A stretch of DNA of 64,000 bases from Candidatus Kaiserbacteria bacterium. Lineage in GTDB: Bacteria; Patescibacteriota; Minisyncoccia; Phycocordibacterales; UBA2100. Numbering within the stretch: position 1 is the first letter of the stretch; the number at the start of each line of letters is the position of its first letter. The stretch is from assembly GCA_023267655.1 (NCBI GenBank), contig JAHFMV010000002.1, positions 7,228-71,227 on the forward strand, in the 5' to 3' direction. The notes below the pieces were generated by a model, which did no database searches, had not been told where the DNA came from, and was given only the letters and a program-made list of their open reading frames with translations. Positions 4,361 to 45,540 of the stretch are shown here, in pieces. The translations under genes and the position numbers were made by a program.

Positions 4361-4366
4361 AGGTGT

Positions 4367-32350: not shown

Positions 32351-32658
32351 TCCGCGGTGGCGCAACGGTAGCGCAGCTCGCTGTCGAAGGCAGCTTCTTA
32401 GAGGAATCTAAGAATGCAAACGAGGAGAATTGCTGGAAGCCCGAACTTGAAATAGTGGGTAATCAGCAGCCGAGCTCACGAAAGTGAGAAGGTTCAGAGA
32501 CTATCCGAAAGGAGTAGTCCCATGAGATAGGCACAGCCGCCATCTCACGGGACGAAGCACCTCGCACCCAGAACGGGTGATGATATAGTCCACCCCCTTT
32601 GGAAACATTGGGACAAAGTGTAACGAGTTGGTTGTAGGTTCGAATCCTACCCGCGGAG
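32351..32658 (+). tRNA. tRNA-Asn (anticodon GUU) interrupted by a group I intron in the anticodon loop.
   Basis: 5' exon 32351-32384: TCCGCGG acceptor, D-arm GCGC-AACGGTA-GCGC, anticodon stem GCTCG, loop CTGT. 3' exon 32621-32658: TAA, CGAGT, variable TGGTT, T-arm GTAGG-TTCGAAT-CCTAC, acceptor CCGCGGA, discriminator G. The spliced anticodon loop is CTGTTAA. Confidence 0.7.
32385..32620 (+). ncRNA. Group I self-splicing intron within tRNA-Asn.
   Basis: P-like AATTGCTGGAA, Q-like AATCAGCAGCC, R-like GGTTCAGAGACTA and S-like GATATAGTCC elements are present. The IGS GCAGC sits 6 nt into the intron and can pair with the exon end GCUGU. The intron ends in G. Confidence 0.7.
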
Positions 32659-34245
32659 CTCGGTTGGATGATGTGCGAATGCAAGTACCGTGTCAAACGG
32701 TTTTCGCAGCGTAAACTCTAGCGTTTTTTCGTTTACGGTCGGGTTCTGAAGTAAATACCCCAAAATTGTCCTTTTCTCATCAGGTTCAGAACTTTCGAAG
32801 ATTTCACCCATGCGGCGGGACAAGTCGAGGACAGTGCCAACGTGGGTGTGATACTGATGATCCGCCTTTGTGTATGCTTCTAATTCCGCGTTCAAACGGT
32901 ACTGTTCTTCCTTCAATTCCTGCAACTTATTGTCGTAGTCTTCCTGTGTAATACCCATGTCGAGACGCATATCAAGCAGTGCGTTGACCTTGCGCTGCGC
33001 TCTATCGTATTCGCCACGAATGCGTGCTATTTGCCGCTCATGGTACACAGCTTCGTGCTCATTGAGCTCACGAAGTTCTGCCACCAGCCTTTCCTGCACC
33101 TCATGCGGAATCATCTTGAAAGCATCAAATACGGCGTGTACTGGTTCCAAAAGCTTTTTCTCTGGGACATAGTCTCGCTTGCATATCCCTTTCGCATTTG
33201 TACAGGAATAATAAATGAATTTACCTTTCTTTATTTCGGGACTCAGCATGCAACCGCAGTTGTTGCAGCGCAAAAGACCTTTCAACACATATGGCTTTGA
33301 AAGAAGCTTTGAGCGACGGGTGCTTCTACCGCGAAGCACGTCCCGACATTCTTGGAACAAATCAGGTGTAATGAGCTTCGGGTACTTGTGAGGATATTCG
33401 CCATATTTTTTTGATACCGCCATGCCGCACAAAAACGTGTCTTTAAGCATCAGCTCTATATTGCTTCGTGATAACTTTTGCCCCTTAAGACCGCGTAAAC
33501 CCATGCGATCAGCCTCTTTCCACAACGTTGTTATGGAATAGCCACCTGTAGCGTACATTTCAAACAATTTACGTATGATAGGAGCGCGTACCTCATCGAG
33601 AATAATATCGGTTTCGATTACCTCGCCCTTCTCGTTTCGCCGCTGCTTTCGGACGTAGCCGATGCGGGGGTTTCCTGTCCACTCACCAACTCGCCGCTTC
33701 TGCTCGAATGCTCGTTTTACATTATCGCTGATCGCGTTCGAATAATACTCAGCAAGGTTCAGACTGATGCCGAATTGGAATTTACTATTTGCGGTTCCAT
33801 CGCCGTTTATAACTTGATTGTCCGAGGCGAAATGTAATTCGATTTTCCCACTTCTCGCCAATTCGCACAGTAACGCCACCCGTTTATCGAAGACGTTGCG
33901 TGAAAAACGATCTACCTTATCGAAGCACACAGCGACCTTTTCGAACTTCGCCCTTGCCTGTATATACAGCAAAGCTTCGTCGAACACGTCTCTCTTTTCC
34001 TTGTACGCACTTTCGTCAAAACTAAACACTTTCTCGACCTCAAACCCCTTACGTCGACAGTGATTTTTCATTCGCTCGATCTGTGCCGGCAAAGAATTAC
34101 CTGCTTCCTGCTGCTCTGCCGTGGACACTCTGGCGATATTGATTGATTTCATTGTGTTTTCTTTAATTTTACCCCATATCCGCGACGCGAAGTCACGTAA
34201 AATGGCTGATAACTTTTCAAGGATGCTGTCATTTTTTTGAACCAC
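32647..34245 (-). CDS. Large serine recombinase (integrase); the likely start is MKSINIARVST, near 34152.
   Basis: An N-terminal resolvase domain with catalytic Ser (ARVST) and DRFSRN, followed by a recombinase domain, a zinc ribbon (CNNCGC...CTNAKGIC) and a coiled coil. The last codons and stop overlap the tRNA-Asn 3' end. Confidence 0.85.
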   Translation of the reverse strand: MVQKNDSILEKLSAILRDFASRIWGKIKENTMKSINIARVSTAEQQEAGNSLPAQIERMKNHCRRKGFEVEKVFSFDESAYKEKRDVFDEALLYIQARAKFEKVAVCFDKVDRFSRNVFDKRVALLCELARSGKIELHFASDNQVINGDGTANSKFQFGISLNLAEYYSNAISDNVKRAFEQKRRVGEWTGNPRIGYVRKQRRNEKGEVIETDIILDEVRAPIIRKLFEMYATGGYSITTLWKEADRMGLRGLKGQKLSRSNIELMLKDTFLCGMAVSKKYGEYPHKYPKLITPDLFQECRDVLRGRSTRRSKLLSKPYVLKGLLRCNNCGCMLSPEIKKGKFIYYSCTNAKGICKRDYVPEKKLLEPVHAVFDAFKMIPHEVQERLVAELRELNEHEAVYHERQIARIRGEYDRAQRKVNALLDMRLDMGITQEDYDNKLQELKEEQYRLNAELEAYTKADHQYHTHVGTVLDLSRRMGEIFESSEPDEKRTILGYLLQNPTVNEKTLEFTLRKPFDTVLAFAHHPTELRG

Positions 34246-35291
34246 TCATCTGCTCTCATGCCTCTTAAGCGCGGCGCTGTCGTATTGAATTTACGTGCAA
34301 AGCGAGACCACGTTCGCGCGTTCACGAAGGCATCAAGCACGATGCGGAGCTCACGCATACCACCGCAATTACGCGCAAGCATGATGAGACCAACGAGCTC
34401 TATAGCTTCTGCCGCTTTTGCTGGATGCGTCGCCAGTACTTTATACAGCACGTGCTTTGCAGATCTTTTAGGTCCGAATATGACGCCGCGCCAGTTTAAT
34501 GTCGCCGCATCCCAGTAATCGCGAAGGATCGTTTGGCTCTTTTGCGATGAAAAGACATCGGAAAACGCGGGATTCATCCCGAAACCGTGCCGCGCGAATA
34601 CAGCGTTTAACTTTACCCTAGCCGTGAGTTGTACCTCAAAGCGAAGGATATTTTGCCCGCGCAATCTGGCGGCAAGTCTTGTCTGTGCCTGTTGCCACTT
34701 TTTGCCTCTGCCCGTTTTTTTTGATAGTTCAGCCACCTTGTCATAGAACGTGAACGAATGCTGACTCGCCGTCGCCTTGAGACCCTGACCACCATTGCGA
34801 TAGTGCGTGTATGACACATCAACACCTCGGCGGACCATCAGCTTTTCCAGCTCTTTCATGACCCCCGTAATGGGTGCGCGTTTCCCAAGCAAGACATTTT
34901 TGGAATAATCTACCCGCATGATCTTCGCATTTCGAATCTCTTTTGCCGTGAGGTCGATCCCCATCATGCTTAGCCGAGATTGCAGAACCGAAAGAACCAC
35001 GTCGAAATCCGCATCAACCACTTCGTCCACATTATTGCCGTAAAGCAGCTTCGGAACAGAGAACTGGATCTTAATCCTTGATGTCACCCCATGCTTCTTA
35101 CTCATGTTGTTTACCCCTGTAATTTGCGGGAAATAGTGCTCGCTTCCACGCTCTTCCTTGGAGGGATCACGATAAAAGGTCTCATATCCTTTCCCTCGCG
35201 TACCGCCATCCCACATCGGTCTGCCTTTGGTGTCCACATCGCGTGCCGTTAAATTTCCTTGCGACACCGCGAGAATAACAGTGTCGATCAT
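34149..35291 (-). CDS. Putative rolling-circle replication initiator (Rep_trans / phage gene II-like).
   Basis: RVDYSKN and FTFYDKVAE motifs resemble the Rep_trans RxD..D and YDK signatures. It is adjacent to iteron-like repeats. Confidence 0.4.
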   Translation of the reverse strand: MIDTVILAVSQGNLTARDVDTKGRPMWDGGTRGKGYETFYRDPSKEERGSEHYFPQITGVNNMSKKHGVTSRIKIQFSVPKLLYGNNVDEVVDADFDVVLSVLQSRLSMMGIDLTAKEIRNAKIMRVDYSKNVLLGKRAPITGVMKELEKLMVRRGVDVSYTHYRNGGQGLKATASQHSFTFYDKVAELSKKTGRGKKWQQAQTRLAARLRGQNILRFEVQLTARVKLNAVFARHGFGMNPAFSDVFSSQKSQTILRDYWDAATLNWRGVIFGPKRSAKHVLYKVLATHPAKAAEAIELVGLIMLARNCGGMRELRIVLDAFVNARTWSRFARKFNTTAPRLRGMRADEWFKKMTASLKSYQPFYVTSRRGYGVKLKKTQ

Positions 35292-35482
35292 ACGGGCTGT
35301 CGCTCTGTATACAGATGCGAATTAACCCGCCTATCAATTCGGAGAAGCAGATCGTAGAGGCGTACAAGATTTCTCTCGCCGCTAAAATCATCTAATAACG
35401 CAGCAATGGCTGCACTTTTCTCGATTCCGCGCGGCTGCGGATCGCGGGACGCATTGTGCATCCCGATTTCTTTCTCGCTCAT
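35288..35482 (-). CDS. Small hypothetical protein upstream of rep.
   Basis: 64-aa ORF overlapping the rep start by 4 nt. Confidence 0.25.
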   Translation of the reverse strand: MSEKEIGMHNASRDPQPRGIEKSAAIAALLDDFSGERNLVRLYDLLLRIDRRVNSHLYTERQPV

Positions 35483-35600
35483 AGTGAGCTCTGTCGTTTA
35501 CACCCACAGGATCGCGTAAAACGCGCCCTACAGGTTGCGAGATAGGAAGTGGCGGGTCGGACTAGACCCCATCACGCCAAATAATGGCTTTAGACATCAT

Positions 35601-35701
35601 TTGACTACGTTGTGCCGCTTATTCGTACACCACTTCGGTACGAAATACATATTGAAACGCTTTGTTGCGGGATTTTCCCCGCCTTTGTGCCGCTTTATTC
35701 A
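35601..35701. repeat. Iteron-like direct repeats TTGTGCCGCTT(T)ATTC, followed by an AT-rich stretch; candidate origin.
   Basis: Two copies 85 bp apart (35601.. and 35686..), then the AT-rich run caatttatttttatttacttattcc at about 35780. Confidence 0.35.
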
Positions 35702-36015
35702 AACTTATACAGCGTAAACCACTTAACTTACCGAGAAGTATATTCGAGATTAACGAAAAGTCAATACCATTTTGTGTCGCAATTTATTTTTATTTACTTA
35801 TTCCATGCCGCGAGGGCATTTTTTCTCTGAAATCGGAGTGTATGTCCTCGGACTTACTACAAACTCTTGAAATGGCTCAAGAGAGCCGTTTCTATTTTTG
35901 TCGCGACCACGTGCGTGTGTCTCTTTGAATCTTCGCCGCAATTGCCAACATCCATATCGAAACACTGCATACACCCCTCACGACTTGGAAAGGGTTATTA
36001 ATAACTATTTGCACC

Positions 36016-36207
36016 ATGAAAATGTATATTGAGCCGCTGTACCGCCTCGTGTGGGACGAGGCGCAGGGCGCGTACGTCGAGACGGGGGAGCTTCTGGGCT
36101 ACAAAGCTGTGGATTGGCTCGGGCAGATCATCGCATTCGGCGAGAGCCGCGAGGCGGCGTACGAGAATGCGCTGGACGCGGCAGCAGACGTCCTCGGGGG
36201 TGTGTAG
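36016..36207 (+). CDS. HicB-like (UPF0150) small protein.
   Basis: 63 aa. YVETGELLGY...GESREAAYENALDA resembles the HicB_lk antitoxin fold. Confidence 0.4.
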   Translation: MKMYIEPLYRLVWDEAQGAYVETGELLGYKAVDWLGQIIAFGESREAAYENALDAAADVLGGV

Positions 36208-36212
36208 CTGAC

Positions 36213-37352
36213 CTATTCTTTGTGTTCGACGATAAATTTTGCTCGCTGATACAGCTCGTCAAAAGTGAGAATGTCGATGCCATGAATCGACTTGCGAAAT
36301 CGTTGAAAAGTCTCCCGCTTGCTCCGGCTGTCGAGCTGCGAGAGCGAGCCAACCACGATGATTCCTTTCGGCTGAACCGTATAAACGCCTCTACCTTCCA
36401 GCTCGTCTCTGTTGTCCGGCTGCTCTGACCCCGACTTGTCCCACGTCGCCATGTTAGCTTCGATTTGGGACACCGCATCAGTTAACTCTTTCGACAAGCT
36501 CCATGCCCCCGCTCTGATTTCCACGCTACCCTGCAACAGCGGGGTTGCCGGCGTCTTTATTTCAACGAGGACTGTGAAATCTATGTCGCCCGTCGTGGAG
36601 GTAAGGTAATCGCCCTTCTGTCCTCCTTTACCATCCACGCGCGTGCCACCATAATGAGGCTGCGCCTGTTCCTGTTTGAGGATTTGGTAGTTAAGACCAT
36701 AGCCAAAAATCCATTTGTTTTTCTCAAAAAAGCCCTGCCACTCACTCTCCGCGCGGGGAAGCGTTTCGAGCGCTTTTTCAAATCGCTCAAGCACGTCGCG
36801 CCGTTTGAGAAGCTGGTTTATATCCTCATCCGACAACTTTACCTCCGCTGCAGACGAGAGTTTCTTGATGATGCTCACCACGCTCTCCGTATCGCGACCA
36901 CGCAAAGCGGCGACAATCTCCGCTTCGCCCTGCGATATGAGCGAAAAAGCGCCCTGCGGTATCTCTATATCGCGCAAGGATTGCAGGAATGAAATGAGTT
37001 GCCAAAAATTCTCGTGGCATTCCTCCAAACTAACGTTCGCTTTGAGCACGTAAGTGTTTTCCTCGATAGCCCCGCTTTCTTCGAAGATCTTTTGACTTTT
37101 GTCTCGTATGGAGAACGCGAGGCGCGGGGTGAATTTTTCGCCCTTCTTGATGAGGGACACTTTGCAGACGTAGCTCACGCGCGGGCGTTCGTGCAGCACA
37201 AACTGCGTAATCAGCCGTCTTTGCTGGGTGTGGTAGAAGTAGTAAAAGTTATCGACTGCCGGCGCAGAGTTGATCTGGAGGTGGGCAAAGTCATGTTTAC
37301 CAATGACGAAATCCTCGCCATCGCTCCACCCAATAAGCTCGCTGAATTTCAT
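36213..37352 (-). CDS. Shedu-like DUF4263 PD-(D/E)xK nuclease-domain protein.
   Basis: C-terminal GDIDFTVLVEIKTP (D...EIK PD-ExK motif) and GIIVVGS. The size of about 380 aa matches SduA. Confidence 0.5.
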   Translation of the reverse strand: MKFSELIGWSDGEDFVIGKHDFAHLQINSAPAVDNFYYFYHTQQRRLITQFVLHERPRVSYVCKVSLIKKGEKFTPRLAFSIRDKSQKIFEESGAIEENTYVLKANVSLEECHENFWQLISFLQSLRDIEIPQGAFSLISQGEAEIVAALRGRDTESVVSIIKKLSSAAEVKLSDEDINQLLKRRDVLERFEKALETLPRAESEWQGFFEKNKWIFGYGLNYQILKQEQAQPHYGGTRVDGKGGQKGDYLTSTTGDIDFTVLVEIKTPATPLLQGSVEIRAGAWSLSKELTDAVSQIEANMATWDKSGSEQPDNRDELEGRGVYTVQPKGIIVVGSLSQLDSRSKRETFQRFRKSIHGIDILTFDELYQRAKFIVEHKE

Positions 37353-37354
37353 AC

Positions 37355-37885
37355 GTGAGGGCTTTCAACATAGCACTTCCCGCCCTTGCAATAAAGCAAG
37401 GAGACAGAGGGCTCCCGTGCTATATTGTGCGGCATATGAAGACGACGGGCGTCGTGCTGGCAGGCCTATTCTCGATTTTGCTCGTCTTGATTATCCTCAA
37501 ATTGATGGGCTACAGCTTCAATAAAGACTACTTCAGCTTTGATAAGCAGCAGTGCATCGCGAGCGAGGATGAGACCCGCGCAGGCCATTCAGGTATACAG
37601 GGGTGCATATTTTGGATGAGAAACGATTACTTGGAAAAAACGCAGTCGTGGAAAGACGAGTTTGCAAAAGACACAGACTACTGCAATGAAAAATACGGAG
37701 GAGATACCACAAAGGCCGCAAGCTATGCGGGGTTCAAATCACTGAGCGACCCAAGATGCAACTATGGTCCATTTACGAACCAAAAACGGCAAGAAAACTG
37801 GGCATACCTCGTTTCAAAAGAACAAGACGGATTTTACGCATATTGTGTCGAACAAATCTGTCCCGACCAACGCCTTTTCAAATAA
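37355..37885 (+). CDS. Membrane-anchored cysteine-containing hypothetical protein; the likely start is MKTTGVVLAG.
   Basis: An N-terminal TM helix, then a Cys-containing extracytoplasmic domain. Confidence 0.4.
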   Translation: MRAFNIALPALAIKQGDRGLPCYIVRHMKTTGVVLAGLFSILLVLIILKLMGYSFNKDYFSFDKQQCIASEDETRAGHSGIQGCIFWMRNDYLEKTQSWKDEFAKDTDYCNEKYGGDTTKAASYAGFKSLSDPRCNYGPFTNQKRQENWAYLVSKEQDGFYAYCVEQICPDQRLFK

Positions 37886-37943
37886 AGGGAATGCCGCAGT
37901 TGCCACGAATAGCCAGTAAACTGCCGAGTGCTATGATAATGGT

Positions 37944-38288
37944 ATGAAATTAGAAACATTTTTTGGATTGCAGAAAGAAGTACAAGAGTGCGTGGAAAAG
38001 TTTAATTTCAACTGGACTAACTATGTGCAATACATCCACCTTGTTGAAGAGGTAGCGGAATTGGGGGAAGCGCTCACAGTGCATCAGGGAGACAGAAAAG
38101 CTGGTTCTGGTGAAAATGCATTAGCCGACCACCACGACACAAGGGAAGAATTGGGGGATGTTTTATTTAATGTGATACAGATAGCAAATCAGTTAAATCT
38201 CAATCTTGATGAGGTAATGGAGGAAACTTTTGCACGATACGAGGAAAAGTTAAAAAGGCTTAAGAATCAGGCTGAGACGTCCGCATAA
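37944..38288 (+). CDS. MazG-like nucleotide pyrophosphohydrolase.
   Basis: EEVAELGEA and EELGDVLFNV, the all-alpha NTP-PPase motifs. Confidence 0.65.
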   Translation: MKLETFFGLQKEVQECVEKFNFNWTNYVQYIHLVEEVAELGEALTVHQGDRKAGSGENALADHHDTREELGDVLFNVIQIANQLNLNLDEVMEETFARYEEKLKRLKNQAETSA

Positions 38289-39931
38289 AGCACAGACGCG
38301 GGGAGTACGTGGACGAAGGTGCGATAATCCCCTATACAATCAGCACAGTCATGAAGGAGGATAGTGCCGGAATGTAAGCCAGCTCCTTCACCGCTGCTGC
38401 CCACGCTTGAGTTCTGAACTCGTCCAGCCTGGGGAGCCCAGACTTGGATTGACTTGAATTCGCCGGTTATCGAATCGGGATTTTGGCGCGCGGCGCGAAG
38501 CGCCGCGTAGAGAGGATGCGCCGTGCCGGAGATTTTTTGATTGTAGAGTTGCAGGTTCGAGCCGAAGATTTTTTGAATTGCGGATTTTTTGGCGGGGAGA
38601 GAGGGGTTGCTTGGGATTTCAGCAAGGTTTTCTGCCTCCTTTATCCACTCACGCATGGGTTCGAGCCACGCGCTGCCGTCCCGCTCCAAACGCACAATTT
38701 GTTCCAATAACGTCCGCTTGTGGGACAACAGTGCGCGACGCTTCGCCAAGTATGCGTCGCGCTCAATTTCCTGCGCAATATAGAGATCCAAAACGCGGTC
38801 GAGTTTGCGGTCTATTTCGTTCATTTCGTCCCGTAAGCCAGAAATTGTCTGCGCGCTTGTGCGCTCCGCATCGCGTTCATCCACTTGCGTTCTGCGCCCG
38901 AAGTCGTGCGCCCATTCGGGCGGCAGGACAAAGAGCGAAAGCAGATTCGAAATATCAGTAACGAGATTTTCTTCACGCACGTAGGATTGCGTGCAGTGAA
39001 TCGACTTTTTTGTGCAGCGATAGTAAACATATCGGTGAAAATTGCCGTTCTTTTGGTGTTTCTCACGCACCTCGGCCGTGATAGCCATGCCACATTCACC
39101 ACACGACATGAGACCGCAAAATACTTGCGGCTGTGTCGTCGCGGCTTGCGGATGCCCTCGTTCGACAACTACTTTTTGTACTTTATCGAACAGCCGCTTG
39201 TCCACGATTGGCGTATGACGTCCCTCATATAGTTCGCCCATGTAGAGAAAAAGACCGCAATAAAACGGATTGGTGAGAATGAATTTCACGCGGTCGTCGT
39301 GGATACGATTACCGTATAAACTGCGCACTCCATTGTCGTAAAGAAACTTACCAATGTCTTCTACTCGCGAATTGCCTTTAGAATATTTCTCAAACGCGGC
39401 CTGAATTATTTTCGATTTCTTCTTATCAAGCATGATTGTTTTAGTGCGCGGATCGTTTCGATACCCCACCGGCGCAGTACCCGGGAAATCACCGCGCCGC
39501 GCTTTCGCGCGAAGCCCTCGCGCAGTGTTCGCGCTCAATTGTCGGATATATTCATTTGCCATGCCGAATTCAACCGACATGATGAGCACATTGTCCTGCG
39601 GCAAATACGTCCGATCGTGGGTTCGTATTTGCTGGATGATTCCCTGTTGCAATAGCCAGCTAATTTGTCCACTGTCCACGGGATTGCGCGAAAGTCGATC
39701 TATCTTCCAACACAAAATGCCCTGCGCCTCGCCCTTTTGGAGTCGCGCCATCATCTCGCTGAACACGGGGCGGCCGGGCATCTTCGCCGAGCGCTTTTCT
39801 ACAAACTGCTCGACTATTTCTAGCCCCTCCCGCAGCGCGAGCGCGTACAACTCTGACAACTGCGCCTCGATAGATAGGACTTGCTTGTCCTCGACATCAG
39901 TGCTTTTGCGGGCGTAGAGGAAATATTTCAT
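38267..39931 (-). CDS. Large serine recombinase (second copy, with a different sequence).
   Basis: YARKSTD...DRLSRN resolvase domain, a recombinase domain, a zinc ribbon and a coiled coil. Its C-terminal coding region (38444-38616) is one arm of a 173-bp inverted repeat. Confidence 0.85.
   Translation of the reverse strand: MKYFLYARKSTDVEDKQVLSIEAQLSELYALALREGLEIVEQFVEKRSAKMPGRPVFSEMMARLQKGEAQGILCWKIDRLSRNPVDSGQISWLLQQGIIQQIRTHDRTYLPQDNVLIMSVEFGMANEYIRQLSANTARGLRAKARRGDFPGTAPVGYRNDPRTKTIMLDKKKSKIIQAAFEKYSKGNSRVEDIGKFLYDNGVRSLYGNRIHDDRVKFILTNPFYCGLFLYMGELYEGRHTPIVDKRLFDKVQKVVVERGHPQAATTQPQVFCGLMSCGECGMAITAEVREKHQKNGNFHRYVYYRCTKKSIHCTQSYVREENLVTDISNLLSLFVLPPEWAHDFGRRTQVDERDAERTSAQTISGLRDEMNEIDRKLDRVLDLYIAQEIERDAYLAKRRALLSHKRTLLEQIVRLERDGSAWLEPMREWIKEAENLAEIPSNPSLPAKKSAIQKIFGSNLQLYNQKISGTAHPLYAALRAARQNPDSITGEFKSIQVWAPQAGRVQNSSVGSSGEGAGLHSGTILLHDCADCIGDYRTFVHVLPASVLYADVSA
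38444..38616. repeat. Inverted repeat IR1, copy 1, inside the recombinase 3' coding region.
   Basis: Near-identical to the reverse complement of 40929-41113. The two copies are confirmed by shared peptides PSLPAKKSAIQKIFGSNLQLYNQK... on opposite strands. Confidence 0.7.
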
Positions 39932-40080: not shown

Positions 40081-40884
40081 TTAAGTGAGAAATATCTTTC
40101 CATATCCATCAATTCTCCCGTTATAGAGGTGGCGATTATATTTTTCCGCTACGGCCTTGCAAAGTTGTTGACCATAACTACCCCCCGGACTATCGACTTT
40201 TCCTTTTGCGTGTAGAAGTTCCATGCGGCATGGATAAGCAAGAATGTCGGCAATTTGTAATCCCGTAACATTCGCACTTTTCGGCTGGATCTTTATTTCT
40301 TTCGTAGTTAGAGAATTTTGAAAGAATTCCGGCTTACGAAAATTTGTACCGCTCTCCCACACGTTTTGGTATGCTTCTTTGAGCTGCATATCTTCACGAC
40401 CGCCGCGACTTTCCGCCATCACATCACCCTTAGCATTGTAATAATTGAGAAATCCGCAGTAGCGCTCGAGTAGTGCAACAACGCAATAGTGATATGGATG
40501 TAAGGCTATATTGCCGTACCTTTTCACATGAGCATTTTTATCAATTACAACCGTCAACAGCTTAAAGTCGTACTTTTTCAGAGTGACTAAAAAATCGTCG
40601 TTAAAAGCTCTTTCTTTTGCCGGATCTAGTAGTCGCCAAAACGGGCCTTTTTTATTGATGAGCTCTTTACGATGAAGAATGACGGGTTCGTCCGGATTAT
40701 GCGGAAAATGTCGCTCTTTAAATTCTGTGAAGTCAGGATGGATGACTTTTTTATAGTAGTCGTTTTCAACAATAACACCTGTGATGCCCAAATACCGACT
40801 TACCACGTTATCTTCATTGCGCGAATACACGTGATCTCCGGCCTCATCGAGATAAAGTCGATAGCGTTTTACATCCATGGGCAA
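40081..40884 (-). CDS. DUF3800-family protein.
   Basis: N-terminal YRLYLDEAGD (DEAG/DESG-type motif) and a length of about 270 aa. Confidence 0.5.
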   Translation of the reverse strand: MPMDVKRYRLYLDEAGDHVYSRNEDNVVSRYLGITGVIVENDYYKKVIHPDFTEFKERHFPHNPDEPVILHRKELINKKGPFWRLLDPAKERAFNDDFLVTLKKYDFKLLTVVIDKNAHVKRYGNIALHPYHYCVVALLERYCGFLNYYNAKGDVMAESRGGREDMQLKEAYQNVWESGTNFRKPEFFQNSLTTKEIKIQPKSANVTGLQIADILAYPCRMELLHAKGKVDSPGGSYGQQLCKAVAEKYNRHLYNGRIDGYGKIFLT

Positions 40885-40928
40885 ATAATACCAAATTATG
40901 AGGGACTAAGTGACTCTCGTGGCCGCGC

Positions 40929-41113
40929 GCATGGATTCCGTATCCCCTCTCTCCCCGCCAAAAAATCTGCAATTCAAAAAATCTTCGGCTCGAACCTGCA
41001 ACTCTACAATCAAAAAGTCTCCGGCACGGCGCATCCTCTCTACGCGGCGCTTCGCGCCGCGCTCCAAAATCCCGATTCGATAACCGGCGAATTCAAATCA
41101 ATCCAAGTCTGGG
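40929..41113. repeat. Inverted repeat IR1, copy 2.
   Basis: Reverse complement of 38444-38616 with a few mismatches. Read on the plus strand it continues into IR2 and would give an alternative recombinase C-terminus, ...QVWAQLYQIARTYFSKHDE*. Confidence 0.7.
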
Positions 41114-41382
41114 CTCAACTATACCAAATAGCTCGAACCTATTTTAGCAAACATGATGAGTGATCGGACACGCGCCGCGTGAGTGGTGACGTGTCCCAAC
41201 AAGGTACGCTCCGCGTCCGTGCCAACTCTGACGCCGCCCGCCGCAGCAAAGCTGCGGCAACCCCGAAAGAAACCGCTTCCCATGCATCTCTGTTCGGCGG
41301 GGGTGGGATGCGTATTGAAATGGAATGGGCGGTTTCTTTCGGGGTTCTGCCCTGTGGGCAGGGGGCGACAAACCCCTCAATC
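41113..41382. repeat. Inverted repeat IR2, copy A (about 250 bp), followed by a 14-bp-stem palindromic hairpin at 41383-41415.
   Basis: Identical 80-aa translations on opposite strands (41139..41384 minus and 44817..45059 plus) show this is a DNA inverted repeat. The hairpin is AAACCCCTCAATCA-CCCAG-TGATTGAGGGGTTT. Confidence 0.7.
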
Positions 41383-41467
41383 ACCCAGTGATTGAGGGGT
41401 TTGAATTACTGCGAGTTAGCTAGAGCGCGTATTTGTAAAAAGTCTCGAACGTTGTTAGATTAGGGAA

Positions 41468-42025
41468 ATGTCTCCAAATATGAATACTCGCTTAGGTATT
41501 CTCAACATTGTCCCGATAAAAGAGCGCCCGGAATTGCTCGCGGAGCCAGTGGCCAAAGCCATTTCAAACTTGTCGGACGCTGACACAATTGGAGTAACAG
41601 AAATCGATCCACGGTTATCTGATACCACCGCATTTTGTGCGCAATATCAAGTTGATATGAATCGAACCGTTAATTGCGTCGTACTTGAGGCAAAACGAGG
41701 CGATCGCACATGGTTTGCGACGGCCGTTATTTTCGGTGACACTCGTGCTGACGTGAATGGTCTTGCACGGCGCACTCTTGAAGCTCGCAAGGTATCATTT
41801 GCGCCCATGGATCAAGCTGTGGCACAAACAGGAATGGAGTACGGAGGAATTAGTCCTATCGGCATTCCAGCTGACTGGCCTATTCTCATTGATAAGGCAG
41901 TTGCTGATTCGGAATATGTGATTGTTGGCAGCGGTATACGGAAATCCAAGCTCGTGATTCCAGGTAAGATTCTTGCTGCTTTACCAAATGCGAAAGTACT
42001 GGAAAGCCTCGGTCAGAAAAAATAA
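41468..42025 (+). CDS. YbaK/ProX-family aminoacyl-tRNA deacylase (free-standing editing domain).
   Basis: EYGGISPIGIP matches the YbaK GGxSPxG motif. About 185 aa. Confidence 0.55.
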   Translation: MSPNMNTRLGILNIVPIKERPELLAEPVAKAISNLSDADTIGVTEIDPRLSDTTAFCAQYQVDMNRTVNCVVLEAKRGDRTWFATAVIFGDTRADVNGLARRTLEARKVSFAPMDQAVAQTGMEYGGISPIGIPADWPILIDKAVADSEYVIVGSGIRKSKLVIPGKILAALPNAKVLESLGQKK

Positions 42026-42066
42026 GGGCCAGCGAAGTGTTCGCCAGCCCTTCTGCACGCGACCGA

Positions 42067-42855
42067 TCATCGTGTCAAGAGATTCTCCGATTCTACACTG
42101 AGTCTCTTCGCCGCACTTTCGCCGTTCACCACTAACTCCAGCCAACGATGAGTGCCGAAACCAGAACTTCCGACAACCCAACTTAGATTTTTGGGAGTGA
42201 CGTCCGCGAGTTGCTCGGAAAAATCGAGATCTGCGAAACGTGTCAGATTTCTTTCTCCTTTCAAGACAGTCGTCTTGCAGTTGCCGAAAGGATCGTCGAC
42301 ATACCAGACGGCAAGTGGTGCATCGGGCACGACATCTCGTACCTGCATCTTTTGCCCAGGCACTTTCCATCGTGCCGCAATCCACAGAGCAACGCGAGGC
42401 AAGAATTCATAACTCCTAAACTGCGTTGTAGTTACATTCTCTGCTTCAGAGGAAGAAATAAGACGTTTCTTCACCGCCCACTTCATCACCGTCGGAATAT
42501 CGAGAACATGCATTGTCTCTGCGAGTTGAAGTTTTTTTACAAGCGAGAGCGTTTGGCCAGCGACGGTTGACACGAGGAGTGTCTTACCGATGTAGATATA
42601 ACAAAACGGCGTGCCGTTCGGCCATTTTTCTCGCAAGCCATTACGAGGCGCCACGTTCGCAAGCAAAATTCCTTCGCCACCATTACAACGCGCTGCGTCA
42701 AGTGCGTCGACGATATGTCCCGCAGCTTCGAGGTCGTTACGCGCCCCAATGACTTGCGGCAAGAGACCGCAAAGAGACTGAACGCGAAGCGACTGTCGCC
42801 CTGCGGCGTTTCGGCAATCACAATCTGTCACAATGCCAAAGAACTGTATCTTCAT
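42067..42855 (-). CDS. DUF62 / SAM hydroxide adenosyltransferase-like protein (SAM hydrolase family), divergent N-terminus.
   Basis: C-terminal VWYVDDPFGNCKTTV matches the IDxFGNxxTN motif, and GSSGFGTHRWLELVVNGESAAKRL matches the DUF62 C-terminal domain. N-terminal motifs are weak. Confidence 0.45.
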   Translation of the reverse strand: MKIQFFGIVTDCDCRNAAGRQSLRVQSLCGLLPQVIGARNDLEAAGHIVDALDAARCNGGEGILLANVAPRNGLREKWPNGTPFCYIYIGKTLLVSTVAGQTLSLVKKLQLAETMHVLDIPTVMKWAVKKRLISSSEAENVTTTQFRSYEFLPRVALWIAARWKVPGQKMQVRDVVPDAPLAVWYVDDPFGNCKTTVLKGERNLTRFADLDFSEQLADVTPKNLSWVVGSSGFGTHRWLELVVNGESAAKRLSVESENLLTR

Positions 42856-42922
42856 GACCTATCCTTTCGGGCCACTTGCTGCCGAGGACCATTCCTCGAC
42901 AGGATAACGACCCCAAAAAAGA

Positions 42923-42950
42923 AAACCCTCCGCGTTTGCGGAGGGTTTTC
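42923..42950. terminator. Strong bidirectional rho-independent terminator AAAACCCTCCGC-GTTT-GCGGAGGGTTTT.
   Basis: A perfect 12-bp stem flanked by A- and T-tracts. It lies between the Met-rich leader ORF and the DUF62 gene start. Confidence 0.65.
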
Positions 42951-42976
42951 GTGAGATTCTTTTTTTCAAAATTACA

Positions 42977-43048
42977 TCATACGAAATGTTCCTCCGCGCG
43001 AAGGGTCATCATGGCCATCATCATTGCTGCGCGAAGATGCGTATGCAT
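42977..43048 (-). CDS. Candidate Met-codon-rich leader peptide MHTHLRAAMMMAMMTLRAEEHFV.
   Basis: 23 codons with 6 ATG codons clustered at positions 9-14, followed 27 nt later by the terminator. Codons 18-20 (GCGGAGG) duplicate the terminator 3' arm and could form an antiterminator. Confidence 0.35.
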   Translation of the reverse strand: MHTHLRAAMMMAMMTLRAEEHFV

Positions 43049-43165
43049 ATGTCGATGATATCGAGATTTGGAGAGCTGTCAATAGCGGGAGGGCGAACAA
43101 GGACTCTGCATGTTGAATAATGCTACCCTTATGGGTGTGGCGGGAACGTTGTACTATGAGCAGTC

Positions 43166-43678
43166 ATGATTAGAACGGCTAAAATAAGTGACATCGCTCG
43201 GCTTGTTGATATTGATTCTGCAGCCTATGGTTCGTACGGAGCTGACAGGGGCTACTTCGAAGAAAAGTTTGCTTCCGATAATGTGGGCATTCTTGTCGTC
43301 GAAGAAGCTGGGGATGTTAGCGGTTTTTGCGTTTTTGAGATTCTGAGATCGAATCAAATTCCGCCTGATTTTTGCGATTTGAAATTGAGAAAACCACTGG
43401 AAGATACGTGGACACATATTATTGCGTTTACAACGTCAACCAACTATATCGACCTTGAGTCGGATGGTCAGCTGGTTCGAGCCGTAGAAGAAAAAGCGAA
43501 AATCATGGGATCTGATATCTTTTGTGTCCCATTAAGTGTAGAACATCCTTTTGAAAAAAATGACGTCTTCGGCTTTTGGAAGAAGAATGGCTATGAGCGT
43601 GCGGGAACTATCAAGTGGAAAGCCAGTTCGAATGAACTCATTGAGTGTTATTTTTATTGCAAACTCGGCGCTAGATGA
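43166..43678 (+). CDS. GNAT-family N-acetyltransferase.
   Basis: About 170 aa with an acetyl-CoA binding-like core (VVEEAGDVSGFCVFE). Confidence 0.55.
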   Translation: MIRTAKISDIARLVDIDSAAYGSYGADRGYFEEKFASDNVGILVVEEAGDVSGFCVFEILRSNQIPPDFCDLKLRKPLEDTWTHIIAFTTSTNYIDLESDGQLVRAVEEKAKIMGSDIFCVPLSVEHPFEKNDVFGFWKKNGYERAGTIKWKASSNELIECYFYCKLGAR

Positions 43679-43717
43679 TCGAAAACATATCGCCCATAGA
43701 TAGGCTAAAATACGGTA

Positions 43718-44227
43718 ATGGCAGATGACCCAGTCCCACAACCCGTTGAAAGCCCTCAAACACCGGTATCTGACGGGTTAGCGAATGTGCTGATTCCAGA
43801 GCCAGTTTCGGAGCCGACGTCGGAAGCGTCGGCGAGCGCTCCGAGCGAACCGGCGCAGCCGGTGAGCGATGCTGCGGAGGTCGCGGCGGAGCCGCAGAGT
43901 GAACCACCAACGCCAGAAGCAAAACCACAAACGCAATCAGCGACGTCAGCCGCGTCTGCGCCAAGCCTGATTTCCGATAAGACACCCGAGCACGACCGTG
44001 AACTCCTGAAAATCGCGAGAGCGAAAATTCAGACAAAGAAGAGCGAGAAACTGGAGAAAATCATGATGCTGTTTGAGAAGAAAAAGGAAGTCACGAATGA
44101 TGACGTTGAGAAATTGTTGCGTTGCTCCGACGCGACAGCGCGGAGGTATTTGAACGAACTCGTGAAGCAAGGAAAACTCAAGCGCGTTGGTGAGACTGGT
44201 GCAGGCGTCGCGTATATCAAAGCGTGA
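43718..44227 (+). CDS. Acidic/Pro-rich protein with a C-terminal winged-helix HTH.
   Basis: C-terminal DDVEKLLRCSDATARRYLNELVKQGKLKRVG. Confidence 0.4.
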   Translation: MADDPVPQPVESPQTPVSDGLANVLIPEPVSEPTSEASASAPSEPAQPVSDAAEVAAEPQSEPPTPEAKPQTQSATSAASAPSLISDKTPEHDRELLKIARAKIQTKKSEKLEKIMMLFEKKKEVTNDDVEKLLRCSDATARRYLNELVKQGKLKRVGETGAGVAYIKA

Positions 44228-44334
44228 GCTTTGAAATTGAATTTGCATCTAGAGAGTGCCGCGAGCATGTGCAACTTGCTCGCGGCGAGATATGTGCGCG
44301 CATGGGGGGGGGTTGGGGCAAGCACGGGGATTCG

Positions 44335-44704
44335 GGCCTCGGGCATTTCCGCTAGGGCAAGGCCCTTCGGTGAGCGCCGCCGAAATCTTGGAATGGAGAA
44401 GTGTTAGAAGCGGAAGCGACACCACGAAAGCAATCTTGGAAACGAGGAGAGGGGTTGTGCGATGGGCGGACTCCGAAGGCCCGTTAATGCGAGCCATACA
44501 AGTCTGTATCACCATGACCAGAGGACACAACGATAGTGGTTGTGTTACAGCTGCGAGGAGGAGACCGAGCTGGGGAGAGGATTCCTTCCTCTCCCCAATC
44601 AGAAACGGCGCCCGAGCCAGAGAGCCCGCAGGCGATACTGGCGAGGAGAAGCGCCGTACCGAGGCATCTAGGCGCGAGCAGCCCTAGCGGAAATGCCCGA
44701 GGCC
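44335..44704. mobile_element. MITE-like non-autonomous element with 24-bp perfect terminal inverted repeats.
   Basis: TIR GGCCTCGGGCATTTCCGCTAGGGC at 44335-44358 and its reverse complement at 44681-44704. The 322-bp interior is structured and non-coding, for example the GGGGAGAGGA-TTCC-TTCCTCTCCCC hairpin. Confidence 0.45.
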
Positions 44705-44799
44705 GGATGGCCGAGTGGTGCACCCCGTTGGACTTTGCCCTAACCGATAGCGATGACTGAGGCTCAATATGCATTTGCATTCCGTATTTGCATTGAACC

Positions 44800-45076
44800 A
44801 ATCAAATACCGGGTAAATGATTGGTTCCCGCCGCCCCCTGCCCTTGGGCAGAACCCCGAAAGAAACCGCCCATTCCATTTCAATACGCATCCCACCCCCG
44901 CCGAACAGAGATGCATGGGAAGCGGTTTCTTTCGGGGTTGCCGCAGCTTTGCTGCGGCGGGCGGCGTCAGAGTTGGCACGGACGCGGAGCGTACCTTGTT
45001 GGGACACGTCACCACTCACGCGGCGCGTGTCCGATCACTCATCATGTTTGCTAAAATAGGTTCGAGCTATTTGGTA
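44800..45076. repeat. Inverted repeat IR2, copy B, with an inner-side 10-bp-stem palindrome at 44794-44824.
   Basis: Reverse complement of 41113-41382. The hairpin is GAACCAATCA-TTTACCCGGTATT-TGATTGGTTC. Confidence 0.7.
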
Positions 45077-45152
45077 TAGTTGAGCAGATTTCTTAGCTTT
45101 ATCTTGCAAGGCATTTTTAGGTCCCCTTGTTGGACGCTCGAACCTAAATTTG

Positions 45153-45190
45153 ACATTCTATATATTTTGTGTATTATACTTTTGGCAAAG
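45153..45190 (+). promoter_or_regulatory. Sigma70-like promoter (TTGACA, 17 nt, TATTAT) for the small ORF at 45228.
   Basis: A consensus -35 and near-consensus -10, followed by the RBS AAGAGGAA 8 nt before the ATG. Confidence 0.4.
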
Positions 45191-45227
45191 TTGAGCCAAG
45201 TTACATTCGAAAAAGAGGAACTTCTCA

Positions 45228-45416: not shown

Positions 45417-45540
45417 TTCAGCTCACCAGCGGAAAGTCCGCTTCGGTGGGCTTTCTGTTTTAGTAACTCGGAATGTGTAGGTATGGATTATTCTGGAAAT
45501 AGGTTCTAACGTCGTCCACGACGCGGACTTGAATTAGCAC

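What the first reader, a model, noticed from the sequence alone, without database searches (positions are those of the whole stretch)
41113..45076. A second 250-bp inverted repeat pair with terminal palindromic hairpins brackets a 3.4-kb cargo of housekeeping-like genes.
IR2 copy A (41113-41382) follows directly on IR1 copy 2, so IR1 and IR2 form one contiguous 440-bp block. The reverse complement of IR2 is found at 44800-45076. Each copy ends on the cargo side in a perfect palindrome: a 14-bp stem at 41383-41415 and a 10-bp stem at 44794-44824. Both stems contain CAATCA/TGATTG. The ORF track shows identical 80-aa mirror ORFs on opposite strands, which marks inverted DNA, not genes. The bracketed cargo encodes a YbaK deacylase, a DUF62 gene with a leader peptide, a GNAT gene and an HTH gene. 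It could be a composite, foldback-type or second invertible element.
Basis: seen in the sequence. Interest (0 to 1): 0.55.

Follow-up and report, generated by a model that had tools for sequence, protein, structure and literature searches.

The report
Inverted attP copies in integrase island
The 250-bp inverted repeat is real. It is one half of a duplicated, inverted copy of the attachment site of a small serine-integrase mobile element sitting next to a tRNA gene, and the same layout recurs in dozens of related elements from ultra-small (CPR/Patescibacteria) bacteria and appears to be undescribed.

Summary
The repeat is confirmed: 41113-41352 and 44846-45085 are 240 nt and 100% complementary (255 nt at 98.8%), and arm A abuts IR1. 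It is not a transposon or a dispersed repeat.

Window 38434-45085 is a 6.65-kb integrated element (E1) encoding a large serine recombinase (LSR). The LSR's attP crossover lies inside the 3' end of its own gene. IR1 (a) is the P side, covering rec codons 442-499. IR2 (b) is the P' side, covering the last 15 codons and a structured 3' region.

The outer arms a' (38434) and b' (45085) are the recombined junctions. The central block a|b (40944-41367) is an intact, inverted spare attP.

Relatives integrate at the 3' end of tRNA genes: 76 loci, with a 3-6 nt shared core and a P'/B half-site offset of 4 bp in 33/33 elements. Most relatives carry the same double inverted repeat: IR1 in 24/30 loci and an abutting IR2 in 15/18.

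Cargo between the b arms is swapped among relatives. One part stays constant: a conserved ~375-nt structured RNA (44323-44717) with no Rfam match.

E1 lies in tandem with a second LSR element at an intron-containing tRNA-Asp.

The function of the spare is inferred, not shown. The most likely role is an inversion switch that restores the integrase's native C-terminus.

The parts
32352..32659 (+). Context: tRNA-Asp (anticodon GTC) interrupted by a group I intron. Its 3' end (core GAGC 32656-32659) is the integration site of the tandem array E2+E1.
   Evidence: Rfam Intron_gpI at 32374-32612, 62 bits. Exons, acceptor stem and T-arm read from the sequence. ARAGORN misses it because of the intron.
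32656..38437 (-). Context: element E2. A second large serine recombinase (32647-34245, 26% identical to rec1), Phage_CRI, Shedu SduA and MazG. Its distal P' arm ends at 38437 and forms the left flank of E1.
   Evidence: Pfam hits and L001 gene table. Joining the rec2 body to the reverse complement of 38200-38433 restores a 563-aa ORF whose tail PRLDEFRTQAW matches homologues P0121 and P0123.
38434..38437 (.). Left junction core GAGC (E2 distal arm | E1 P arm).
   Evidence: Identity to the central block stops here. Contig L005 from another sample is 100% identical up to 38437 and then diverges.
38434..38606 (-). IR1 arm a': codons 442-499 of the recombinase (post-coiled-coil part of the zinc-ribbon domain). 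This is the P side of the recombined site.
38267..39931 (-). Large serine recombinase gene rec1. As integrated, the ORF is 554 aa: residues 1-499 are native, and the last 55 are read-through into E2 DNA.
   Evidence: Resolvase + Recombinase + Zn_ribbon_recom domains. Translation. Homologues.
40081..40884 (-). DUF3800 gene, co-oriented with rec1 inside the IR1-bracketed module A.
   Evidence: Pfam PF12686.
40944..41116 (+). IR1 arm a: spare copy of rec1 codons 442-499 (4 mismatches), with no upstream part of the gene.
41113..41116 (.). Core (GCTC) of the intact internal attP. This is the boundary between IR1 and IR2.
41113..41367 (+). IR2 arm A (b): the P' half-site (GAACC at +19-23), the native last 15 codons and stop (41116-41163, QLYQIARTYFSKHDE*), and a strongly structured region.
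   Evidence: z about -9 on both strands. The tail matches full-length homologues.
41276..41332 (+). Conserved hairpin-core motif inside IR2, enclosed by an 18-bp stem (41259-41276 / 41332-41349). Its inverted twin is at 44866-44922(-).
   Evidence: nhmmer E = 1.7e-9. Core conserved with variable but perfectly complementary stems across elements.
41370..41402 (.). Boundary palindrome on the cargo side of arm A (14-bp stem).
41468..42025 (+). Cargo: YbaK/ProX-like aminoacyl-tRNA editing domain protein.
   Evidence: PF04073.
42067..42855 (-). Cargo: protein with a SAM_HAT C-terminal domain. A promoter-like site and hairpin leader lie upstream (42921-43082).
43166..43678 (+). Cargo: 170-aa ORF, no family assigned.
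43718..44227 (+). Cargo: 169-aa protein with a C-terminal DeoR-like winged HTH.
44323..44717 (+). Conserved ~375-nt structured RNA of the element backbone, transcribed toward IR2 arm B. The closing helix is 44332-44358 / 44681-44707.
   Evidence: 75-86% nt identity against a broken reading frame in relatives. 70 consensus pairs, 27 with compensatory changes, and G-U pairs on this strand. Found in 20 sources. No Rfam family.
44796..44828 (.). Boundary palindrome on the cargo side of arm B (10-bp stem). It is a diverged homologue of 41370-41402.
44832..45085 (-). IR2 arm B (b'): the P' side left at the distal junction of the integrated element.
45082..45085 (.). Right junction core GAGC (E1 P' arm | flank R).

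Best explanation
Shown. Window 38434-45085 is an integrated 6.65-kb element (E1) of a Patescibacteria-wide family of large-serine-recombinase elements. The family inserts at the very 3' end of tRNA genes. Its attP crossover lies about 16 codons before the stop of its own integrase gene.

IR1 (a) and IR2 (b) are the two sides of that attP. The element carries the attP block twice, in inverted orientation. One copy was split by integration: a' at 38434-38606 is still attached to the integrase body, and b' at 44832-45085 sits at the far end. The other copy (40944-41367) is intact and separates a recombinase module A from a cargo bay B.

So IR2 'brackets the cargo' because the spare attP sits between A and B. 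The arms are kept near-identical within each element while they diverge between elements. The cargo between them is exchanged among relatives, apart from a conserved structured RNA next to the distal arm.

Inferred. Integration replaces the conserved native C-terminal tail (..WA-x-LY-x-x-ART(Y/H)F..) with read-through sequence. Inversion of module A across a'/a would rejoin the integrase body to the spare a|b and restore the native gene. The inversion could be RecA-dependent or integrase-dependent. On this reading the double repeat is a built-in spare part, or switch, that toggles the integrase between a fused state (the commoner one, perhaps locked) and a native state (competent for movement).
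For: Domains and tails.
- LSR domains.
- The a->b reading gives ..VWAQLYQIARTYFSKHDE*. Full-length homologues of about 503-521 aa end the same way (P0012, P0030, P0053, P0060, P0082, P0098, P0111, P0118).
- Many other homologues diverge right after ..WA into PRVGFEPTT.., which is reverse-complemented tRNA.

Integration at tRNA genes.
- 76 non-redundant loci have the rec 3' end overlapping a convergent tRNA 3' end.
- attP, a|tRNA and flank|b share only a 3-6 nt core.
- The GAAC(C/T) motif lies at +20 in the P' arm and at +16 in the tRNA arm, a 4-nt offset in 33/33 elements. [quoted passage not shown]
- Clean insertion: in L028 the element separates tRNA-Thr(ggt) from tRNA-Thr(cgt), which are 18 nt apart in L055.

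The double inverted repeat in relatives.
- IR1 is present in 24/30 loci with enough flank, and an abutting IR2 in 15/18.
- Every b arm's best match is its own partner (91-100% identity, against 78-98% between elements).

Orientation states.
- Both orientations of A occur. The fused state is seen in 76 loci. The restored state next to a tRNA(+) is seen in L133, L090, L152, L128 and L134.
- L122 has both attP copies intact, as expected for the excised form. The ends of contigs L074 and L147 fit a circle with two inverted copies.

Cargo and assemblies.
- Cargo is swapped between otherwise homologous backbones.
- Independent assemblies reproduce the window's junctions.
Against: - No read-level data were available. 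For this element, neither excision, nor a circle junction, nor inversion has been seen directly.
- The left flank of E1 is not a tRNA but the distal arm of another LSR element, so its own integration event is reconstructed rather than observed. The only 'E1-absent' contig (L005) continues into DNA that differs from the window's right flank.
- In the Thr-targeting clade the a arms are only 83-93% identical, and orthologous arms are sometimes closer than paralogous ones. That is poor substrate for homologous inversion.
- The spare a copy carries frameshifts in several relatives, so after an inversion with a crossover near the outer end the restored gene would not always be intact.
- Canonical serine integrases do not recombine attP with attL/attR.
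- The strong excess of the fused state (76 versus 5 or more) could reflect sampling as well as biology.
- The model does not explain why b is so long, why it holds a conserved hairpin, or what the RNA does.
Confidence: 0.72

Rival explanations
1. Flip-flop repeats of a free circular element, like the yeast 2-micron plasmid. On this reading the two inverted attP-bearing repeats exist for the excised circle. Integrase-mediated inversion between them would serve copy-number amplification or isomerisation, and the integrated arrangement is only a by-product.
For: Excision would give a circle with two unique segments separated by two inverted repeats, each containing the recombinase's site. The recombinase gene runs into one repeat. 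L122 has both copies intact, and contigs L074 and L147 end inside the second copies as expected for such circles. A conserved large RNA adjoins one repeat and could be an RNA-based origin. RNA-based origins are reported for extrachromosomal prophages in the title and abstract of PMC7157519; that paper was not read.
Against: No replication gene is conserved, and the smallest elements (3.3 kb) hold little besides the integrase. No relatives were found in the viral collection, and the IR2-plus-RNA stretch has no match in the plasmid or phage collections. attP x attP is not a productive pairing for characterised serine integrases. Most copies are chromosomal.
Confidence: 0.12
2. IR2 arms are handles of an invertible or exchangeable cargo cassette. 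Recombination between b and b' flips or swaps segment B to change expression, as in a shufflon or phase-variation system.
For: The arms are long and perfectly identical. They evolve in concert. Cargo replacement breakpoints fall at or near the arms. Each arm ends in a hairpin on the cargo side.
Against: The orientation of B relative to the outer arms is identical in 12/12 elements where it can be read: the RNA is always next to the distal arm. No promoter or split gene at the arm boundaries would make orientation matter. The cargo genes have their own promoter-like sites and terminators.
Confidence: 0.1
3. Composite or foldback transposon: two inverted copies of a mobile repeat mobilise the DNA between them through a transposase.
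For: Long terminal inverted repeats flank 3.5 kb. An IS30-like transposase gene lies 460 bp to the right.
Against: The arms contain no transposase gene or IS ends. They are the 3' coding end and downstream region of the serine integrase. There is no target-site duplication. The outer end of only one arm is a junction, and arm A continues seamlessly into IR1. The repeat is not dispersed. The IS30-like element is absent from an otherwise identical contig (L008) without affecting the arm.
Confidence: 0.02
4. Assembly artefact: a single-copy region that inverts in the population was written twice by the assembler.
For: The arms are 100% identical, and k141 contigs break inside them. Palindromic contigs such as L091 and L150 show that assemblers do mis-handle these repeats.
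Against: Both ends of B connect to the same side of b in an independent assembly: L155 = 141 + 3493 + 141 nt. The IR1 arms differ at 4 positions yet sit in one 8-kb contig. In relatives the arms are diverged (91-99%) and assembled through, in many assemblies and studies.
Confidence: 0.02

Closest known systems
Phage-type large serine integrase systems (phiC31, Bxb1, A118/LI, SPbeta SprA)
   Same: Same enzyme architecture: resolvase, recombinase and zinc-ribbon domains with a coiled-coil insert. Short common core. attP and attB half-sites that differ by a 4-5 bp shift of the outer motif. The integrase gene lies at one end of the integrated element.
   Different: The crossover lies inside the integrase's own coding sequence. 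The target is the acceptor/CCA end of many different tRNA genes. No RDF gene is conserved. The element carries a second, inverted, intact attP block. None of these is part of the described systems, as far as my searches and my own knowledge go.
SSV-type 'suicidal' tyrosine integrases of archaeal viruses and plasmids (SSV1, pTN3, pT26-2)
   Same: The attachment site is inside the integrase gene, so integration into a tRNA gene alters the gene. The review argues that this precludes excision unless an intact gene is available (PMC8371274).
   Different: Those are tyrosine recombinases and are stated there to be exclusive to archaea. They split the gene into two large fragments. Here a bacterial serine recombinase loses only its last ~15 residues, and the element keeps a spare 3' end.
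Hin/Gin/Cin-type invertible segments
   Same: The recombinase gene lies within (Hin) or beside a segment bracketed by inverted repeats. Inversion changes what is fused or expressed.
   Different: Those use small serine invertases, 26-34-bp sites, Fis and an enhancer, and they switch host or phage surface genes. Here the repeats are 113-344 bp, the enzyme is a large serine integrase, and the thing switched would be the integrase's own C-terminus.
Yeast 2-micron plasmid (Flp/FRT in 599-bp inverted repeats)
   Same: The predicted excised circle has two unique regions separated by two inverted repeats, each holding the recombinase target.
   Different: Flp is a tyrosine recombinase in a eukaryotic plasmid with its own origin and partition system. 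No replication functions were found here.
Tycheposons and other tRNA-targeting islands
   Same: Small cargo-carrying integrative elements that accumulate in tandem at tRNA genes. The tycheposon preprint 10.1101/2020.12.28.424599 was seen only as a search hit and was not read.
   Different: No internal inverted attP duplication or associated structured RNA is known to me for them. The comparison rests on my own knowledge plus the abstract.

Membership tests
Large serine recombinase (serine integrase) integrative element | Recombinase with N-terminal resolvase catalytic domain, recombinase domain and zinc-ribbon domain | tested here: met
   PF00239, PF07508 and PF13408 on 38267-39931(-).
Large serine recombinase (serine integrase) integrative element | attP, attB, attL and attR related by exchange of half-sites around a short common core, without long direct repeats | tested here: met
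   Window: a|b, flank|a' and b'|flank share only GAGC/GCTC. The same holds, with 3-6 nt cores, in 14 relatives and 33 elements.
Large serine recombinase (serine integrase) integrative element | Outer (DBD2/zinc-ribbon) motif 4-5 bp closer to the centre in attB than in attP half-sites | tested here: met
   GAAC(C/T) is 4 nt closer to the core in the tRNA arm than in the P' arm in 33/33 elements (+20 and +16 in most). Criterion taken from PMC11722253.
Large serine recombinase (serine integrase) integrative element | Occupied versus empty site differing exactly by the element | tested here: inconclusive
   Relatives: L028 versus L055 fit a clean insertion between two tRNA-Thr genes. Window: L005 breaks exactly at 38437 but continues into DNA unlike the window's right flank.
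Large serine recombinase (serine integrase) integrative element | Recombination directionality factor, and demonstrated integration and excision | not testable with these tools
   No gene other than rec is conserved across elements. Activity needs experiments.
SSV-type suicidal integrase elements | Attachment site inside the integrase gene, altered by integration into a tRNA gene | tested here: met
SSV-type suicidal integrase elements | Tyrosine recombinase of archaeal viruses or plasmids | tested here: not met
   The enzyme is a serine recombinase. The hosts are Patescibacteria MAGs. So E1 works in part like this family but is not a member.
Composite / foldback transposon | Terminal inverted repeats that are IS copies or transposase-binding ends, with target-site duplication | tested here: not met
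   The arms are the integrase 3' end plus its downstream region. No duplication at 41113/45085. The repeat is not dispersed.
Site-specific invertible segment (Hin/Gin, shufflon) | Both orientations of the bracketed segment occur | tested here: inconclusive
   Module A (IR1) occurs in both orientations among relatives. Segment B (IR2) has one orientation in 12/12. Within-population flipping cannot be tested without reads.
2-micron-like inverted-repeat plasmid | Autonomous circle with two inverted repeats each carrying the recombinase site, plus replication functions | tested here: inconclusive
   L122, L074 and L147 are compatible with such circles. No replication gene is conserved. No relatives were found in the viral collection, and the IR2-plus-RNA stretch has no match in the plasmid or phage collections.
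Any Rfam RNA family (for IR2 and for the 375-nt RNA) | Covariance-model match at or near the gathering score | tested here: not met
   Nothing credible at E <= 5-10 in 37500-46500 or 44290-44770.

The most novel reading that the evidence does not exclude
A widespread bacterial counterpart of the archaeal 'suicidal integrase' strategy, built on serine integrases. Integration at the CCA end of a tRNA gene swaps the integrase's C-terminal tail. A built-in inverted spare of the attP/3'-end block then lets a single DNA inversion restore the native enzyme. That would give RDF-independent control of when the element can move. A previously undescribed ~375-nt structured RNA and a conserved hairpin module would be parts of the same integration module.
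Probability: 0.3. Interest if true: 0.82.

Novelty: new variant of a known kind. Interest (0 to 1): 0.68.

Why it matters
- Patescibacteria/CPR have tiny genomes, and few mobile elements have been characterised in them. This family appears to be a major vehicle of accessory and defence genes at their tRNA loci. The search found 3597 homologues with E <= 0.001 among the 8000 candidates scored.
- The review read states that recombinases which disrupt their own gene are exclusive to archaea. These bacterial serine integrases do the same in a milder form. They also add a structural solution, an inverted spare attP, that I found described nowhere.
- If the spare works as a switch, it is a new way to control serine-integrase directionality. 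Serine integrases are important genome-engineering tools.
- A family that recognises the universal T-arm/CCA end of tRNAs would offer many natural attB sites.
- The associated large structured RNA is a candidate new RNA class with clear covariation. Its fixed position next to attP makes its function directly testable.

Tried and rejected
- Rfam at gathering and at permissive thresholds found nothing for IR2 or for the 375-nt RNA. Only terminator-driven weak leader hits and a snoRNA-like chance hit appeared.
- I tested whether the spare copy encodes a small protein (the C-terminal integrase fragment). Rejected: several relatives have frameshifts or stops in the a part of the copy.
- I tested whether IR2 provides a promoter reading across the crossover toward rec and toward the flank. 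The consensus scan found none. An extended -10-like TGGTATAGT is present in the window, but the equivalent positions in relatives are weak. In L021 and L023 the genes next to the spare are divergent from rec. Not supported.
- MAFFT/RNAalifold on the IR2 hairpin motif mis-aligned the variable stems and returned only a 5-pair inner helix. I replaced this with an anchored count of exact complementary stems, and no covariance model was built.
- I looked for the window's cargo in other contexts. The YbaK-like protein is not on record, and the HTH protein occurs only on contigs of the same element.
- I looked for A-inverted or B-inverted contigs of this very element. Short-read contigs stop in the arms and carry no information.
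- The viral collection scan found no relatives. The plasmid and phage collections gave no match.
- I considered whether site-specific recombination alone could generate the duplication, by writing out all inversions and excisions. It cannot. The duplication is inherited, which fits the orthology signal between arms of different elements.

Full report
OBSERVATION.
The repeat is real. The repeat finder reports arms 41113-41352 and 44846-45085, 240 nt, 100% complementary, 3493 nt apart. It also reports IR1 (38434-38606 / 40944-41116, 173 nt, 98%), whose second arm overlaps IR2 arm A by four bases. blastn of the window against itself extends IR2 to 255 nt at 98.8% (41113-41367 / 44832-45085) and finds no further copy in 64 kb.

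The two 'terminal palindromes' exist at 41370-41402 and 44796-44828. Both fold as DNA hairpins. Read in the same orientation they are diverged copies of one hairpin with changes on both strands. The mirror ORFs are in the ORF list.

Independent k141 metagenome contigs are 100% identical to the window across every junction and stop exactly 141 nt into the IR2 arms. L001 equals 33238-41253. L155 has the length of B plus 141 nt of each arm (3775 = 3493 + 282). L006 and L008 run from 44945 into the right flank. The structure is therefore not an artefact of one assembly.

WHAT THE ARMS ARE.
The 554-aa ORF 38267-39931(-) is a large serine recombinase with Resolvase, Recombinase and Zn-ribbon domains. 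Its codons 442-499 are IR1 arm a'. Beyond the repeat it reads on into sequence that does not look like protein.

The other IR1 arm, read on the + strand and continued into IR2, gives ..SIQVWAQLYQIARTYFSKHDE* with the stop at 41163. Homologues are abundant in Patescibacteria. Those that cover the whole restored query are about 503-521 aa and end in the same ..(W/L)A-x-(L/V)Y-x-x-ART(Y/H)F-x(4-5)* tail. Many others diverge immediately after ..WA into PRVGFEPTTNSL..STIELPRN, which is a tRNA 3' half read on the opposite strand.

So the a|b boundary is a recombination crossover inside the gene's 3' end. The central block a|b is the unrecombined site (attP). a' and b' are the two halves of a recombined copy.

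THE FAMILY.
I fetched 64 genome loci and 80 metagenome loci that encode relatives, 34-79% identical.

In 76 non-redundant loci the rec 3' end overlaps the 3' end of a convergent tRNA gene by a few bases. More than a dozen tRNA specificities are used: Thr, Arg, Gly, Val, Glu, Lys, Leu, Trp, Ile, Asn, Phe, Tyr and others. For 14 elements I wrote out the three junctions: attP, a|tRNA and flank|b share only 3-6 nt. The shared bases correspond to the discriminator/CCA end of the tRNA.

In 33 distinct elements the motif GAAC(C/T) is 4 nt closer to the core in the tRNA arm than in the P' arm. It lies at +20 and at +16 (the T-arm) in most of them. That is the 4-5-bp shift of the zinc-ribbon/DBD2 motif which distinguishes attP-type from attB-type half-sites in serine integrases. 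The shift is 4 bp in SPbeta (PMC11722253).

In L028 the element sits between tRNA-Thr(ggt) and tRNA-Thr(cgt), which are 18 nt apart in L055. The elements are 3.3-11 kb.

THE DOUBLE INVERTED REPEAT IS A FAMILY TRAIT.
Self-comparison of each locus shows an inverted repeat of 113-173 bp (82-100% identity). It pairs the rec 3' end with a copy upstream of rec. Abutting that copy is a second inverted repeat, mostly 120-344 bp, whose partner lies 1.2-7.6 kb further away. Among loci with enough flank, IR1 is present in 24/30 and the abutting IR2 in 15/18. The window's layout a'-A-a|b-B-b' is therefore the normal anatomy of these elements.

Every b arm's best match is its own partner (91-100% identity, against 78-98% between elements). 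The a arms of the Thr-targeting clade are only 83-93% identical and sometimes resemble their orthologues more. The duplication is therefore old, and the b arms evolve in concert.

WHAT LIES BETWEEN THE ARMS.
No protein family other than the recombinase recurs. Closely related backbones carry unrelated B segments. These encode, for example, HaeII endonuclease, methyltransferases, a PD-(D/E)XK nuclease, GNAT, inositol-phosphate synthase, large surface-type proteins and type III restriction-modification systems. The window's cargo is a tRNA_edit/YbaK-like protein, a protein with a SAM_HAT C-terminal domain, an unassigned 170-aa ORF and a DeoR-like HTH protein.

One part of B is not cargo. Window 44323-44717 is conserved at 75-86% nucleotide identity in at least 17 elements, while its apparent 143-aa ORF breaks frame. 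RNAalifold on 17 sequences gives 70 pairs, 27 of them with compensatory double changes. G-U pairs place the RNA on the window's + strand. Rfam has no match.

In 12/12 elements with both arms this RNA lies just inside the distal b arm and points toward it. Segment B therefore has a fixed orientation.

IR2 itself contains a conserved ~50-nt core (TCTCCATGC-T-rich-CGCGGGGG-..TTGAAATTGAATGGGCGG). The core is enclosed by stems of 7-18 bp that differ in sequence between elements but are always exactly complementary. nhmmer finds the core in 34 of 147 sources, always as an inverted pair when both arms are present. The whole region folds far better than shuffles (z about -9).

ORIENTATION STATES.
In the common state, which includes the window, the rec body is attached to the arm that abuts the tRNA, so the native tail is lost. 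In L133, L090, L152, L128 and L134 a tRNA on the + strand is followed directly by the inverted a fragment and then by rec reading away from it. That is the same element with module A inverted, and there the contigs stop before the rec 3' end.

L122 has an intact b'a' copy upstream (preceded by the RNA) and an intact native rec 3' end downstream, as predicted for the excised form. L074 and L147 are contigs whose two ends stop inside second copies of the a-b block.

Written out, excision of the window's element (38434 joined to 45085) gives a circle in which b' and a' rejoin to restore the native gene. The circle then holds two inverted attP blocks. No combination of conservative recombination events can create the duplication, so it is inherited.

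CONTEXT IN THE WINDOW.
E1's left flank is not host DNA. At 32352-32659 there is a tRNA-Asp(GTC) interrupted by the group I intron that Rfam finds at 32374-32612. A second large serine recombinase (32647-34245(-), 26% identical) reads into its 3' end across the same core GAGC.

Joining that gene's body to the reverse complement of 38200-38433 restores a 563-aa ORF with the tail ..HHPTELPRLDEFRTQAW... Homologue fragments carry the same tail..HPTRLGDLDKFRTPYW.. and ..RPSGLHVMDEFRTLNW...

Hence 32656-38437 is another element, E2, carrying Phage_CRI, Shedu and MazG. E2 and E1 form a tandem array at tRNA-Asp, and junction 38434-38437 is E2's distal arm joined to E1's P arm. Contig L005 from another sample is identical up to 38437 and then continues into unrelated DNA. 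E1 is therefore absent there. L005 is not a simple empty site, however, because its continuation differs from the window's right flank.

HOW IT MOST LIKELY WORKS.
Shown: IR2 is the P' half of a duplicated attP block, and it brackets the cargo because the spare copy sits between the recombinase module and the cargo bay.

Inferred: the spare exists because integration alters the integrase. Archaeal SSV-type integrases also carry their site inside their own gene. The review argues that the fragmented gene cannot support excision without an intact copy, and it states that such recombinases are found only in archaea (PMC8371274).

Here one inversion across a'/a would re-attach the integrase body to an intact a|b and restore the native tail. 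The existence of both states next to tRNAs fits this. The excess of the fused state would follow if the fused enzyme is less able to move the element.

Weak points are several. The a arms are diverged in one clade. Some spares carry frameshifts. The enzyme of inversion is unknown. No read-level evidence exists. The roles of the long structured b region and of the RNA are unexplained.

Rivals are a 2-micron-like flip-flop of the free circle, an invertible or exchangeable cargo cassette, a composite transposon, and an assembly artefact. The last two are refuted by the anatomy and by the comparative data.

NOVELTY.
Full-text searches for serine recombinases with Patescibacteria/CPR, tRNA targets, inverted repeats, or attP inside the integrase gene found nothing describing this architecture or the RNA. 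The library is incomplete, so prior description cannot be excluded. I file it as a new variant of a known kind: a serine-integrase integrative element.

Noticed in passing
window 44323-44717 (+): A ~375-nt RNA-like element with strong covariation (70 pairs, 27 compensatory) and an optional insert domain. It has no Rfam family. It is conserved next to the distal attP arm in 20 sources and always points at the arm. Its function is unknown. A regulatory role for integrase or attP, or an RNA-based origin, are guesses.
   Followed up: partly
window 41276-41332 (+) and 44866-44922 (-): A conserved ~50-nt core inside IR2 (..CCATGC, T-rich run, CGCGGGGG, TTGAAATTGAATGGGCGG). It is enclosed by stems that vary in sequence but stay perfectly complementary across elements. 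It is present in 34/147 sources. More distant relatives have a different hairpin (GCGGGCAAAAA..TTTTTGCCCGC) at the same place.
   Followed up: partly
window 32352-32659 and 32647-38437: An intron-containing tRNA-Asp(GTC) missed by ARAGORN. A second, distantly related large serine recombinase is fused to its 3' end at the same GAGC core. The native tail of that recombinase is encoded 5.8 kb away at 38433 and downward, so a second element (Phage_CRI, Shedu SduA, MazG) lies in tandem with E1. This second family also has attP inside its own gene but no internal spare copy.
   Followed up: yes
window 45136-45145 and 45181-45200: The right flank holds att-like fragments. GCTCGAACCT is a 10/10 match to the P' motif. 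TTTGGCAAAGTTGAGCCAAG matches the reverse complement of the attP core 41109-41128 at 17/20. It lies just downstream of a strong promoter-like site (45150-45177). These may be remnants of older elements at this hotspot.
   Followed up: no
window 45462-46550; L008 518-581: An IS30-like transposase gene (rve + HTH_38, 45542-46549, minus strand). Contig L008 from another sample is identical up to 45461 and then differs, which suggests a recent IS insertion or a strain difference right of E1.
   Followed up: no
window 42860-43082 (-): A promoter-like site (TTGACA-16-TATCAT) and a strong hairpin/terminator (42921-42950) lie upstream of the SAM_HAT-domain gene. There are weak Rfam leader-type hits (E = 0.02-0.8). 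This may be an attenuator or an unknown cis-regulator.
   Followed up: no
L012 12264-21040; L025 3653-9795; L108 5873-6500; L087; L036 16771-18126: Several relatives show arrays. A second b-RNA-cargo-b' unit lies just beyond the tRNA. There are extra integrase 3' fragments next to a tRNA, or two integrases converging on one tRNA. So tRNA loci accumulate these elements.
   Followed up: no
L091 (1-1040 / 2754-3793) and L150 (1-1550 / 3102-4651): Short contigs with perfect 1.0-1.5-kb inverted repeats around an intact integrase gene. These are either assembler fold-backs at the repeats or elements with much longer inverted repeats.
   Followed up: no
L020 11481-12709: One relative has the integrase 3' end joined at the crossover to a 133-bp arm, not to a tRNA. 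The arm's inverted partner lies 1 kb downstream, and an intact spare lies upstream. This arrangement does not fit either of the two states.
   Followed up: no
rec1 codons ~470-480 (window 38490-38520) and relatives: The conserved peptide (Y/W)AAL(R/C)AA is encoded by a GC palindrome (GCGGCGC-TTC-GCGCCGC). Part of the 'protein' conservation in IR1 may therefore reflect a DNA or RNA hairpin.
   Followed up: no
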